Below, one piece after another: positions 8,717 through 56,113 of a stretch of DNA of 64,000 bases. The DNA is taken from the NCBI GenBank assembly GCA_951813565.1, contig OX638351.1, positions 3,616,001 through 3,680,000 on the forward strand, in the 5' to 3' direction. The notes under the pieces are model-generated. The model did no database searches. It saw only the letters and a list, made by a program, of their open reading frames with translations, and had not been told where the DNA came from. The DNA is from an uncultured Poribacteria bacterium. Lineage in GTDB: Bacteria > Poribacteria > WGA-4E > WGA-3G. Each line of letters begins with the position of its first letter. Position 1 is the stretch's first letter. A program made the translations under genes and the position numbers.

Positions 8717-8766
8717 AATCTCTCATAAATCATTTATTTATACAGCGGATAGTAAATAGCAAAAAC

Positions 8767-8818
8767 GCAATGAATCTTGCTGCTACGAAATACTTTTAGC
8801 AGCGACATTATTCATTGC
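8767..8818. repeat. Imperfect inverted repeat (hairpin) upstream of murF
   Basis: GCAATGAAT...GCTGCTA / TAGCAGC...ATTCATTGC arms. Confidence 0.6.
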
Positions 8819-8933
8819 GCCATCACATGCAATTTAGATTGAACAACTACGGGTGTGTAAATATTTGGTTACATAGGTTCAATTTGCAATGATTACGCGG
8901 CGTTTTCCACTGTAGAGCGGGGTCCCTGTGCCT

Positions 8934-9204
8934 CATAGCCGTCAATTTAAGGATATACCCTCTTGTGGGAGTGAATCAACGCAGCATGCGCGTCCGGCAT
9001 GCTGCCAAATCAACGCCAAATGCGCTTTTTGGCATTTGTCCAAATCAACGCAGCATGCGCGTCCGGCATGCTGCCAAATCAACGCCAAATGCGCTTTTTG
9101 GCATTTGTCGGGTTTTCAACCCCGATAAATACATATAAATCGGGCTTATAAAGCCCTCCCACAAGAGGCAATCTGGTAATTGTGTGCTTAAATTGACGCC
9201 TATG
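8934..9204. mobile_element. Nested MITE with IS4/IS231-like TIRs
   Basis: CATAGCCGTCAATTTAAG (8934-8951) vs CTTAAATTGACGCCTATG (9187-9204), 17/18 match; flanked by 18-bp near-direct repeats AGCGGGGTCCCTGTGCCT / GGCGGGGTCCCTGTGCCC. Confidence 0.8.
8974..9109 (+). repeat. Tandem array of four 34-35 nt CAAATCAACG-hairpin micro-elements (order A-B-A-B)
   Basis: Units 8974-9005 (5'-truncated), 9006-9040, 9041-9074, 9075-9109. Confidence 0.9.
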
Positions 9205-9260
9205 GGCGGGGTCCCTGTGCCCCGCCACTACGCAGGACGTGCCATGCAACGGGCAGGCAC

Positions 9261-9390
9261 CAAATCAAGAAATCAACGGTATGAACCATGGCGAATGCCA
9301 TACGGGGAATGCCAGCAGGCATTCATACCGTTGATTTGGCGCATTCGTCTTTAGTCATTCACCGGGTCCGAATGCCTTTTGGCATTCCCC
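9261..9390 (+). repeat. Composite CAAATCAA...ATTCCCC element inserted in a REP-like arm, with a 35-nt element nested in reverse orientation at 9304-9338
   Basis: Near-identical to 15451-15545 except for the exact 35-nt extra segment. Confidence 0.88.
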
Positions 9391-9522
9391 GGAGACCCGC
9401 CCCTACAATAGGAGTTGTGCGGATTTCTACAAAAACTTTACACACCCAACAACTACAGAATCTGATATTCCGTTCTCAGTCAGATTATTTTTTTGGCAAA
9501 ACTTGCCATCGGTTCCAGTTGT

Positions 9523-15333: not shown

Positions 15334-15584
15334 TACAGTCTATCTCATAAATCGTTAAATACGTTTCCTTACACAGGTTCTACATTCATCGTAGGGGCGG
15401 GTCCCTGTGCCCGCCCATTGTTTACACTTATGAGAGAGATGGCGAGGCACCAAATCAAGAAATCAACGGTATGAATCATGGCGAATGCCATATGCGCATT
15501 CGTCTTTAGTCATTCACCGGGTCCGAATGCCTTATGGCATTCCCCGGGACCTCGCCCTACAAATGATTTATGAGATACGCTCTA
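15334..15584. mobile_element. MITE with TA(C/G)AG..TATCTCATAAATC TIRs carrying a GTAGGGGCG...CGCCCTAC REP-like pair and a micro-element composite (15451-15545)
   Basis: TACAGTCTATCTCATAAATC vs GATTTATGAGATACGCTCTA (17/20); same ends at 52376-52556 and a single end at 34569. Confidence 0.8.
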
Positions 15585-54429: not shown

Positions 54430-54692
54430 GTCCCGACAAATGCCATAAGCGCATTTGGCGTTGATTTGGTAGGGACGGTATGTTTATAGAAAATGATTGG
54501 ACGAGCACTCTTTAGTCCCGACAAATGCCGGACGGGGAATGCCAAAAGGCATTCATACCCGGTGAATGACTAAAGACGAATGCGCTTGGTAGAATACGCT
54601 TTTGGTATTCTACATGATTCGCCATGATTCATACCGTTGATTTCTTGATTTGGCGCATTTGGCGTTGATTTTGTAGGGACGATATGTTTATA
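54430..54692 (-). repeat. Two GTCCC^GTAGGGAC palindromes, each interrupted by CAAATCAACG-hairpin micro-elements (the second one multiply nested)
   Basis: Insertions 54435-54468 and 54520-54672 (inner composite 54534-54652, innermost hairpin 54589-54613). Confidence 0.85.
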
Positions 54693-54800
54693 GCACAAAT
54701 GCAAATATATGTGAAAACCAACAAAACAAAATGTTAACTGGCACAAGTCGTAAGACTAATAATTGCCTTTTATAAACATACGATTGATCGGGATTAACAA

Positions 54801-55409
54801 ATGGTATTTGATAATAAACCGATATCTGAAATCACTGATCAAGATTTGAAAAAACTAATCGGTAGACAAGAAGAAAATTTATGGATTGATTTTAAGGAGG
54901 AGCACTACCAAGGATACAAAACTCACCATGAGATATATATATATAGACGTGAGATATGCAAAGATGTTACTGCAATGGCTAATGCTGAAGGTGGATATAT
55001 CCTTATTGGTGTTGATTAAAAAAACAAGATCGCAAAAGAATTTGTTGATATCCTTGATGCAGATGGAAAAGCAGATAGTATCTATAAAACTTGCCAACAA
55101 CATATAGTTACACGAATCGTAAAATTAAAAGTAAAACCATATAAATTGAGATTGTCGGCTCGAGAAGTTAACCTTATAATTATTCATATTCCTTTTAGTG
55201 AAAATCGTCCTCACGGTTTTAATTCGAATGGGACACTCAATTTTGTAAAGCGGTATGGAGATACTACAAAAGAATTTCAGATAGAAGAGTTCAGGCACGA
55301 ACTTTTAGCACGACATCATTTGCCATTCATGGATGACATTAGAGGGCAGTTGGATAGGATTGAAAGTCACACCACAATTATTTTAAAGGAAATCGGAGAG
55401 AACAAGTGA
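54801..55409 (+). pseudogene. AlbA_2/Schlafen-domain protein with an in-frame TAA at 55017-55019
   Basis: QEENLWIDFKE, KDVTAMANAEGGYILIGVD*KNKIA...IIHIPFSENRPH...FVKRYG; ORFs 54801 and 55146 share a frame and the segment between them is open. Confidence 0.8.
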
Positions 55410-56113
55410 ATTCGCTTTCGGCAAGATGCAATTCTTTTGTTAAAGTTATATCCGACCAACCCTATTATCACATCTTCGCGTTACCAAACGAATCCAATGG
55501 AAAAGTTGTACCTACCGAAGATCAACGTATACGCGATATTTTGCATAATCCACCGAACAAACGTTGGGCAGGTTTTGGTGTTACAGGACTATTGGAACGG
55601 GACGAGCATCAATGGGAAGAGGGCATAGAAGGAAACAATGTAACCGGAGGGCAAATTACCTTACTAAAGAATGGATATTTTGAAGTTATATGTCCTATCA
55701 ATATCCAGTTTCAAAGAGGATGGAATTCCCCTCAATTTGCAATTCCTAAATCTGTAAAATGGCTGTACCCGTATGTAGTCATTGAGTTTCCTGTCTCATT
55801 CATGCGATTAGTGAAGGCGATTTACGGTAAGTCTGATATTGACTCTGGTGTAACCATAGAACAGTACTACCATAATATCACAGGATATGCTTTGCCAGAG
55901 GGACCACCTACCTATCCTACGTTTGGGGCATTTCTGGATGAGAGAGGTGTGTACGAAGGGACATCCTCTATTCACTCTGTGCAACAGGTTCTCAATAATT
56001 TTATCCCTGACCATGTAGCTTACGATCTGGTGGTAGACGTGTACGCCAAATTTGGATTAGGTGCTAAAACAATTCCAGCGTTTGATGAAAACAAAAAATT
56101 TATTTTAGAATAG
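55406..56113 (+). CDS. Hypothetical protein translationally coupled to the AlbA_2 gene
   Basis: 235 aa ORF, GTGA overlap with the upstream stop, GGAG SD. Confidence 0.7.
   Translation: MNSLSARCNSFVKVISDQPYYHIFALPNESNGKVVPTEDQRIRDILHNPPNKRWAGFGVTGLLERDEHQWEEGIEGNNVTGGQITLLKNGYFEVICPINIQFQRGWNSPQFAIPKSVKWLYPYVVIEFPVSFMRLVKAIYGKSDIDSGVTIEQYYHNITGYALPEGPPTYPTFGAFLDERGVYEGTSSIHSVQQVLNNFIPDHVAYDLVVDVYAKFGLGAKTIPAFDENKKFILE

What the first reader, a model, noticed from the sequence alone, without database searches (positions are those of the whole stretch)
8974..9109. Previously unrecognised family of 34-35 nt mobile hairpin micro-elements (CAAATCAACG leader) inserting at C^G
Seen: units consist of a constant 10-nt leader CAAATCAACG plus a 24-25 nt hairpin ending in C, e.g. 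CAAATCAACGCCAAATGCGCTTTTTGGCATTTGTC, CAAATCAACGCAGCATGCGCGTCCGGCATGCTGC, CAAATCAACGGTATGAATGCCTGCTGGCATTCCCC. Removing each insertion at 9261, 9304, 15451, 54435, 54520 and 54534 restores a host sequence joined at C^G with no TSD, in both orientations. Here four units are head-to-tail (A-B-A-B), as expected if each insertion regenerates a CG target at its 3' end; a later 69-bp duplication could also explain it. Known analogues are very small dispersed repeats of cyanobacteria and HUH-mobilised REP/PATE elements. Inference: a trans-mobilised system using a ssDNA hairpin or site-specific recombinase; the enzyme is not in this window.
Basis: partly seen in the sequence, partly recalled or inferred. 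Interest (0 to 1): 0.85.

Follow-up and report, generated by a model that had tools for sequence, protein, structure and literature searches.

The report
Tiny self-nesting mobile hairpin, Poribacteria
A 33-36-base piece of DNA, made of a fixed short leader and a hairpin, has been inserted again and again into other repeats, into itself and sometimes in frame into genes of sponge-symbiont Poribacteria, so it is one of the smallest mobile DNAs seen, moved by an enzyme that is still unknown.

Summary
Real and mobile, but not quite as described. The unit is two variable bases, AATCAA, then a 27-29-nt hairpin closed by C..G. G000 holds 668 cores at 402 loci, and 102 of 111 family genomes carry it against one credible hit in 61 others. 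Orthologous genes are filled in some species and empty in others.

Corrections: the leader is not constant (unit 1 starts TG). C^G is only one junction class: in 13 of 24 host-site groups, including 9261 and 15451, a host base is replaced. The hairpin-side junction is exact; the leader side is ragged by 0-3 nt. The A-B-A-B array is best read as local duplication, inside two nested MITEs that also spread copies.

IS110 (0/40 genomes), reverse transcriptase (18/40) and serine recombinase (17/40) do not track the unit. RAYT genes are rarely flanked by it (1/30) and are missing from five genomes with 34-130 copies.

Best model (inferred): a nick in a hairpin repeat primes copying of a donor unit, closed by microhomology. 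Closest known: Nostocaceae SDRs. The scan has already reported this element on three other windows of this genome and in one other genome.

The parts
8972..9005 (+). unit 1 (class A hairpin, TG-prefixed leader), inserted in a GTGG-tagged REP
   Evidence: 30 empty host copies in the genome
9006..9040 (+). unit 2 (class B hairpin, CA prefix)
9041..9074 (+). unit 3, same rare A variant as unit 1
   Evidence: 8974-9040 identical to 9043-9109
9075..9110 (+). unit 4 (class B) including the terminal G that closes the hairpin
8965..9162 (.). host REP doublet (GTGG-tagged palindrome split by the array, and its inverted partner at about 9140-9162)
   Evidence: read from the sequence; empty form counted
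8938..9200 (.). inner MITE (263 bp, about 14-bp terminal inverted repeats, TA on both sides) carrying the array; IS630-like by its TA duplication (recalled), parent not shown
   Evidence: 45 pairs, 35 with TA on both sides, 32 hold units
8851..9447 (.). outer MITE (597 bp) with a 9-bp target duplication at 8842-8850 and 9448-9456; shares its ends with a 1.46-kb ISKra4-family element of this genome
   Evidence: NF033572, 241 bits, cut-off 205; absent from the orthologous spacer in 23 of 23 measurable relatives
9261..9391 (+). nested composite: class D unit with a second unit inserted in its own leader, plus further inserts; a host A is replaced at the junction
9287..9349 (+). sister-class insert (CAT plus inverted-loop hairpin) in the stem of a D unit, itself holding the unit at 9304-9338
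   Evidence: 88 AATCAT-led hairpins genome-wide
9304..9338 (-). class D unit inserted cleanly at C^G in the loop of another hairpin
   Evidence: 17 empty copies
15451..15546 (+). nested composite like 9261, in a GTAG REP; a host A is lost
54434..54468 (-). single class B unit, clean C^G insertion
   Evidence: 5 empty copies
54519..54672 (-). class B unit (AA prefix) with a composite (54534-54652) nested in its loop
   Evidence: 15 empty copies of the outer site; 0 of the exact inner join

Best explanation
A non-coding, non-autonomous mobile micro-element of one Poribacteria family. SHOWN: fixed AATCAA leader plus a hairpin with covarying stem; insertion into REP-type palindromes, into its own loop, leader and end, and in frame into genes; one exact junction at the hairpin foot and one ragged junction at the leader; later amplification as cargo of MITEs and by local duplication. 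INFERRED: a single-strand nick in an extruded hairpin or cruciform repeat (often 3' of a C on the strand that reads hairpin-TTGATT) gives a 3' end. That end pairs with the G-run beyond a donor unit's hairpin, copies the hairpin and leader plus 0-3 donor flank bases, and returns to the target at a 1-3-nt microhomology, losing 0-3 host bases. A single HUH-type strand transfer followed by repair of the other end would leave the same scar. The invariant leader is probably a protein recognition site. The protein is not identified and is more likely a conserved host or unannotated protein than one of the patchy transposases tested.
For: 668 cores; 525 are followed by G and 122 by the next unit. 293 of those 525 have an empty host in the same genome. 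They fall into 133 flank clusters, 23 of which hold two or more hairpin classes. 558 of 668 have repeated DNA on both sides and 34 on neither. Orthologous gene 1: filled in G000, G006 and G059, empty in 21 of 24 loci examined, 1 unaligned; +36 nt in frame. Gene 2: filled in G000 and G006, empty in 4 of 5; +33 nt with the host A replaced. Net gain differs among sites (0, +1, +2 nt beyond the core), so the exchange is not conservative. Non-G host bases are replaced in 13 of 24 groups; in 9 of these the replaced base is an A before a G, which reads C^T on the other strand. GG follows the terminal G in 82 of 91 copies from other genomes. The base before a CA prefix is C in 51 of 57 clusters. A.C exceeds G.T on the leader strand 70:38 among distinct variants and 12:3 among multi-copy variants, a weak hint that the opposite strand is the folded one.
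Against: No enzyme, intermediate or de novo event was seen. Empty REP copies are today's family members, not the true pre-insertion alleles, so some 'replaced' bases may be rare host variants or later gene conversion. The 24 groups are not fully independent: one host gives three rows, one row is a point mutant, and the parse takes the smallest loss plus gain. In G023 many copies are followed by CC, not GG, so the '3-prime C' rule is not universal. Eight groups are perfectly clean C^G insertions, which a cut-and-paste enzyme explains equally well. The wobble counts are of related variants and are not independent.
Confidence: 0.47

Rival explanations
1. Clean peel-and-paste by a Y1 HUH enzyme (a RAYT or IS200/IS605 TnpA acting in trans) through a single-strand circle, cutting 3' of C; ragged junctions are later edits.
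For: The genome has 10 Y1 matches, with two intact RAYTs over the cut-off, and both have a unit within about 150 bp upstream. Targets are GTAG REPs. C^T and C^A breaks and an obligatory 3' C match RAYT chemistry in PMC8266576 (passages read). Y1 is present in 105 of 112 genomes.
Against: The unit has no GT(A/G)G tag. Only 1 of 30 RAYT loci holds a unit. No RAYT match in G023 (1 contig, 92% complete, 130 units), G001 (72), G010 (96), G013 (91) or G024 (34), and no PF01797 match in four of these five. Median copy number is 82 with and 72 without a RAYT over the cut-off, p=0.11. Host bases are lost at junctions. IS605 ends here do not resemble the unit.
Confidence: 0.2
2. No dedicated mechanism: a few old insertions were spread only as cargo of MITEs and REP composites and by slippage, gene conversion and recombination between units.
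For: 57 and 72 cores lie inside the two MITE families (sets may overlap). The five largest flank clusters hold 174 of 525 copies. Arrays repeat identical variants. Chimeric flanks and head-to-head collapses are common. This explains much of the copy number and the array at this locus.
Against: 133 flank clusters in one genome, lineage-specific sites in G023, insertions in single-copy genes, repeated re-insertion in the leader, an invariant leader (386-394 of 395 per position) and one fixed junction all need a repeatable process.
Confidence: 0.14
3. RNA intermediate: a processed leader-hairpin RNA is reverse-transcribed at a DNA end (an RNA route was proposed for the SDRs; recalled).
For: One exact and one ragged end is typical of target-primed reverse transcription (established knowledge). 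G000 has a CRISPR-linked RT and a solitary RT.
Against: No PF00078 match in 22 of 40 genus genomes, including those with 444, 340, 290, 281 and 225 units; medians 64 with and 84 without. No G.U excess on the leader strand. No Rfam match at gathering score. CRISPR repeats differ from the unit.
Confidence: 0.1
4. Conservative site-specific recombinase (IS110, serine, or integron-like tyrosine; the leader resembles the attC inverse core, recalled).
For: No target duplication; clean C^G class; hairpin substrate ending in G.
Against: IS110 0/40 with controls ringing; resolvase domain 17/40 and absent from several high-copy genomes; variable net gain at junctions; a unit circle could not pair leader with tail as attC needs. 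Tyrosine recombinases were not searched.
Confidence: 0.07

Closest known systems
Small dispersed repeats (SDR1-8) of Nostocaceae, Elhai et al. 2008
   Same: Tiny, structured, lineage-confined repeats. One inserts in a short palindrome (HIP1) and none was found outside Nostocaceae (PMC5861425, one passage read). Self-nesting and unknown enzyme are recalled; the paper itself was not held.
   Different: Longer (33-36 vs 21-27 nt, recalled), fixed AATCAA leader, targets GTAG REPs and itself, one ragged junction, different phylum. No sequence comparison with SDRs could be run.
REP / REPIN / BIME with RAYT (TnpA-REP)
   Same: 20-50-nt hairpin with a conserved 5' motif, hundreds of intergenic copies, occasional in-frame insertion in genes (PMC8266576 abstract, introduction and passages; PMC6006769 passages).
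   Different: No GT(A/G)G tag; moves as a single hairpin, whereas REPIN doublets are the proposed replicative unit (PMC3116915 passages); does not flank RAYT genes; lives inside REPs.
IS200/IS605 non-autonomous derivatives (PATE-like; name recalled)
   Same: Hairpin-based, no terminal inverted repeats, no target duplication.
   Different: One hairpin rather than two ends; no fixed 4-5-nt target; the IS605 ends of this genome are unrelated; host bases are lost.

Membership tests
REP/RAYT system | GT(A/G)G tetranucleotide 5' of the hairpin | tested here: not met
   leader is AATCAA(C) in 386-394 of 395 per position
REP/RAYT system | repeat flanks its RAYT gene | tested here: not met
   1 of 30 RAYT loci; the 7 printed show GTAG repeats instead or nothing unit-like; 2 G000 RAYTs have a nearby unit
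REP/RAYT system | abundance tracks RAYT presence | tested here: inconclusive
   medians 82 vs 72, p=0.11 over 40 related genomes; five genomes with units lack any match; loss after spread is possible
REP/RAYT system | cleavage by the RAYT at C^T | not testable with these tools
   9 of 13 replaced-base groups read C^T on the reverse strand; needs an assay
IS200/IS605 derivative | ends shared with an autonomous IS and a fixed target tetranucleotide | tested here: not met
   IS605/TnpB ends; variable flanks
IS200/IS605 derivative | no target duplication and no target loss | tested here: not met
   no duplication, but host bases replaced in 13 of 24 groups
IS110-mobilised element | IS110 recombinase in the host genomes | tested here: not met
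   0 of 40, controls rang in 6 of 14
IS91/ISCR (Y2) | Y2 transposase in the host genomes | tested here: inconclusive
   0 of 40, but no control genome rang
MITE | terminal inverted repeats and target duplication | tested here: not met
   the unit has neither; its carriers do
Retro-mobilised element | reverse transcriptase in genomes with many copies | tested here: not met
   18 of 40; absent from five of the genomes with 225 or more copies
SDR-like very small mobile repeats | under 40 nt, conserved structure, nesting, filled and empty sites, lineage-confined | tested here: met
   the SDR definition is partly recalled
SDR-like very small mobile repeats | homology or shared mechanism with SDR1-8 | not tested
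   paper not held
Integron cassette / attC | paired core and inverse-core sites and an integron integrase | not tested
   only the leader resembles the inverse core (recalled); tyrosine recombinases not searched

The most novel reading that the evidence does not exclude
A new class of minimal mobile DNA: a single 33-36-nt leader-hairpin that needs no transposase of a known mobile-element family, is copied into nicks in other hairpin repeats by a conserved host or undescribed enzyme that reads the AATCAA/TTGATT leader, lives as a parasite of REPs and MITEs, and adds 11-12-residue inserts to proteins.
Probability: 0.3. Interest if true: 0.85.

Novelty: new variant of a known kind. Interest (0 to 1): 0.62.

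Why it matters
[quoted passage not shown] This unit gives what those systems mostly lack: many filled and empty pairs with readable junctions, insertions in single-copy genes, 100 or more genomes with 0-450 copies for profiling, and a fixed 6-7-nt leader that can serve as bait for the enzyme. It also shows layered parasitism (unit in REP in MITE in MITE) and a route to in-frame protein inserts.

Tried and rejected
Assembly artefact: rejected; the unit is in 102 of 111 independently assembled family genomes, and the reversed-pattern control gave 3 hits in 173 genomes. Fragment of one larger repeat: rejected; 133 flank clusters.

'AACG guide pairs with a C^G target', my first idea: dropped, because the G is in the stem, covaries as A-T in over 20 copies, and many sites are not C^G.

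A master locus beside the only copy in single-copy genomes: 10 loci read, most copies in REP-like repeats, no shared neighbour gene. Neighbours of the 34 solitary copies in G000: no common gene by eye; one is a RAYT, and about 2 of the 34 are false cores. Dense cluster in G023 (100 kb read): no obvious mobiliser by eye, not scanned against libraries.

Phage carriage: 1 hit in viral contigs, not examined. Rfam: nothing at gathering score. CRISPR repeats unlike the unit. No leading- or lagging-strand bias (363 of 668, with a doubtful skew-based origin). A slight antisense excess between co-directional genes (187 vs 237, p=0.017, copies not independent) was not used.

Reads: 4 runs laid, all assembled contigs that break at the repeats; the joints come from other loci, so there is no verdict on within-species polymorphism or circles. 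Gene 3 (N-terminal insert) is filled in 5 of 5 relatives and so uninformative. Two rows (9261, 15451) had their ends one base off and were redone.

Literature: searches found no paper on this element or on Poribacteria repeats; the library lacks most subscription papers, and no supplements were read.

Full report
Observation. The four units are present at 8972-9109, and so are the other inserts named. The leader 10-mer occurs 550 times in the 5.43-Mb genome against about 32 expected. A parser found 668 intact leader-hairpin cores, a few of them false, at 402 loci spread evenly over the genome. A degenerate pattern hits 102 of 111 other genomes of the family (up to 456 copies) and 5 of 61 genomes outside it, once each; only one of those five looks like a true unit.

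Anatomy. The invariant part is AATCAAC (386-394 of 395 per position), and the two bases before it vary. Folding pairs the leader's last C with the G after the stem, so the hairpin is 27-29 nt and ends in G. That outer pair does not covary (CG 268, CC 113 in tandem arrays, others 7). Inner pairs do among 149 distinct variants: position 1 GC 126/AT 7, position 3 CG 84/TA 24/AT 14, position 4 AT 80/GC 55, position 8 GC 107/AT 23. The parser demanded partial pairing, and strand switching can also symmetrise palindromes, so this shows a maintained hairpin, not its function. A sister class, CAT plus a hairpin with inverted loop (88 copies), sits in the stems of other units.

Mobility. Of 525 cores followed by G, 293 have an empty host elsewhere in the genome. 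They form 133 flank clusters, and 558 of 668 cores have repeated DNA on both sides. Twelve cores lie in predicted ORFs of 150 aa or more, several only in doubtful N-terminal extensions. In a gene that looks like a lipoate ligase (name recalled from its motifs), a 36-nt in-frame unit is present in G000, G006 and G059 and absent in 21 of 24 orthologous loci, 1 unaligned. Three of the empty alleles show the exact C^G site; the others differ at that third codon position. In a PstA-like gene (name recalled), a 33-nt insert is in G000 and G006 and absent in 4 of 5, all four with an A that the filled alleles replace. A third gene is filled in 5 of 5.

Junctions. It fails for 9261 and 15451, where the genome's empty hosts have an A, and for unit 1, which has a TG prefix at G^G. 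Among 24 host-site groups with at least 3 empty copies (tandem junctions left out), 8 are clean, 3 lose nothing but gain the G, and 13 lose 1-3 host bases including a non-G. The groups are not fully independent, and present-day REPs stand in for the true ancestors. The hairpin-foot junction is always at the same base; the leader junction varies by 0-3 nt, and the added bases match flanks seen at other filled sites. GG follows the terminal G in 82 of 91 copies from other genomes, but CC is common in G023. In 9 of the 13 replaced-base groups the break reads C^T on the opposite strand. That is the RAYT cleavage site (PMC8266576, abstract, introduction and passages read), but AGG is abundant in GTAG REPs anyway.

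This locus. The spacer is 806 bp in G000 and 145-359 bp, without the block or any unit, in 23 measurable relatives; 6 more of the 29 loci could not be measured. The block is a 597-bp MITE with a 9-bp duplication whose ends match a 1.46-kb ISKra4-family element. Inside it lies a 263-bp TA-flanked MITE, then a REP doublet, then the array. The same A-B composite recurs in about 34 of the 63 multi-unit arrays. Fifteen of 16 arrays of three or more units repeat an identical variant (null mean 2.1, maximum 8).

Enzyme. No mobiliser is among the nine window ORFs scanned, seven of which are housekeeping families. IS110 is in 0 of 40 genus genomes. The resolvase domain is in 17 of 40. RT is in 18 of 40 and absent from five genomes with 225-444 copies. 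Y2 is in 0 of 40, but no control rang. RAYT is over the cut-off in 77 of 112 genomes, absent in five with 34-130 copies, and flanked by a unit in 1 of 30 loci; medians are 82 vs 72, p=0.11, from counts I transcribed. In favour of RAYT, both intact G000 RAYTs have a unit just upstream, and an enzyme can be lost after a burst. IS605/TnpB ends and CRISPR repeats do not resemble the unit. Tyrosine recombinases and unannotated proteins were not tested.

Mechanism. Shown: insertion, nesting, asymmetric junctions, carrier amplification. Inferred (0.47): nick-primed copy-in, or single-end strand transfer, closed by microhomology. Rivals: clean Y1 peel-and-paste 0.2, passive spread only 0.14, RNA route 0.1, conservative recombinase 0.07. 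That the unit is a genuine mobile element I put above 0.9.

Known context. It works like a REP-targeting, SDR-like micro-element. It fails the membership tests for REP/RAYT, IS200/IS605 derivatives and MITEs. The SDR paper could not be read; one passage about it was (PMC5861425), and the rest is recalled. PMC6006769 and PMC3116915 were read as passages. Five searches found no paper on this element. The scan's own notes list it on three other windows of this genome and in another genome, there already with 'one precise and one ragged junction'; I had noted that asymmetry before looking. Verdict: real, a new variant of a poorly understood kind, interest 0.62.

Noticed in passing
G000:C1:4478-5936 (L263) and window 8851-9447: An ISKra4-family element (439-aa transposase, 26-member ORF cluster) with 68 end pairs, many of them 94-665-bp MITEs with 8-9-bp target duplications that carry REPs and units.
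   Followed up: partly
window 8938-9200: A second MITE family with TA on both sides (45 pairs, mostly 124-400 bp); its parent transposase was not found.
   Followed up: partly
G000:C1:3912536-3913327, also near 4876794 and 3110735: An ISAs1-like transposase (label recalled) carries the unit in frame in 3 copies, so an IS has moved with the insert; no empty copy in this genome.
   Followed up: partly
G000:C1:1402782-1403963 and others: About 29 TnpB-only or TnpA-TnpB IS605 elements with conserved hairpin ends and TTAG/TTAA targets.
   Followed up: partly
G000:C1:3988991-3995500 and 811749-813284: An RT gene beside a cas1-like gene and a long CRISPR array, and a solitary RT that looks Abi- or retron-like (labels from protein appearance).
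   Followed up: no
G023:C1:4351000-4440000 (L228-L232): A region of about 90 kb with far higher unit density than the rest of that genome, with repeated re-insertion in the leader; G000 has no such hotspot.
   Followed up: partly
window about 8765-8820; L011-L040: A conserved imperfect palindrome upstream of the Mur-ligase gene is kept in nearly all genus genomes even where the spacer has diverged; a possible regulatory RNA or operator.
   Followed up: no
G000:C1:1460149, 4309389, 1377901 and others: Fully palindromic leader-hairpin-inverted leader forms with unrelated flanks, probably collapses of two facing units.
   Followed up: partly
window 54769-55410: What looks like a gene broken by a stop or frameshift near 55020, next to the unit cluster at 54434-54672; not identified.
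   Followed up: no
G153:C13:7959-7993: The only credible unit outside the family; it could be transfer or bin contamination.
   Followed up: no
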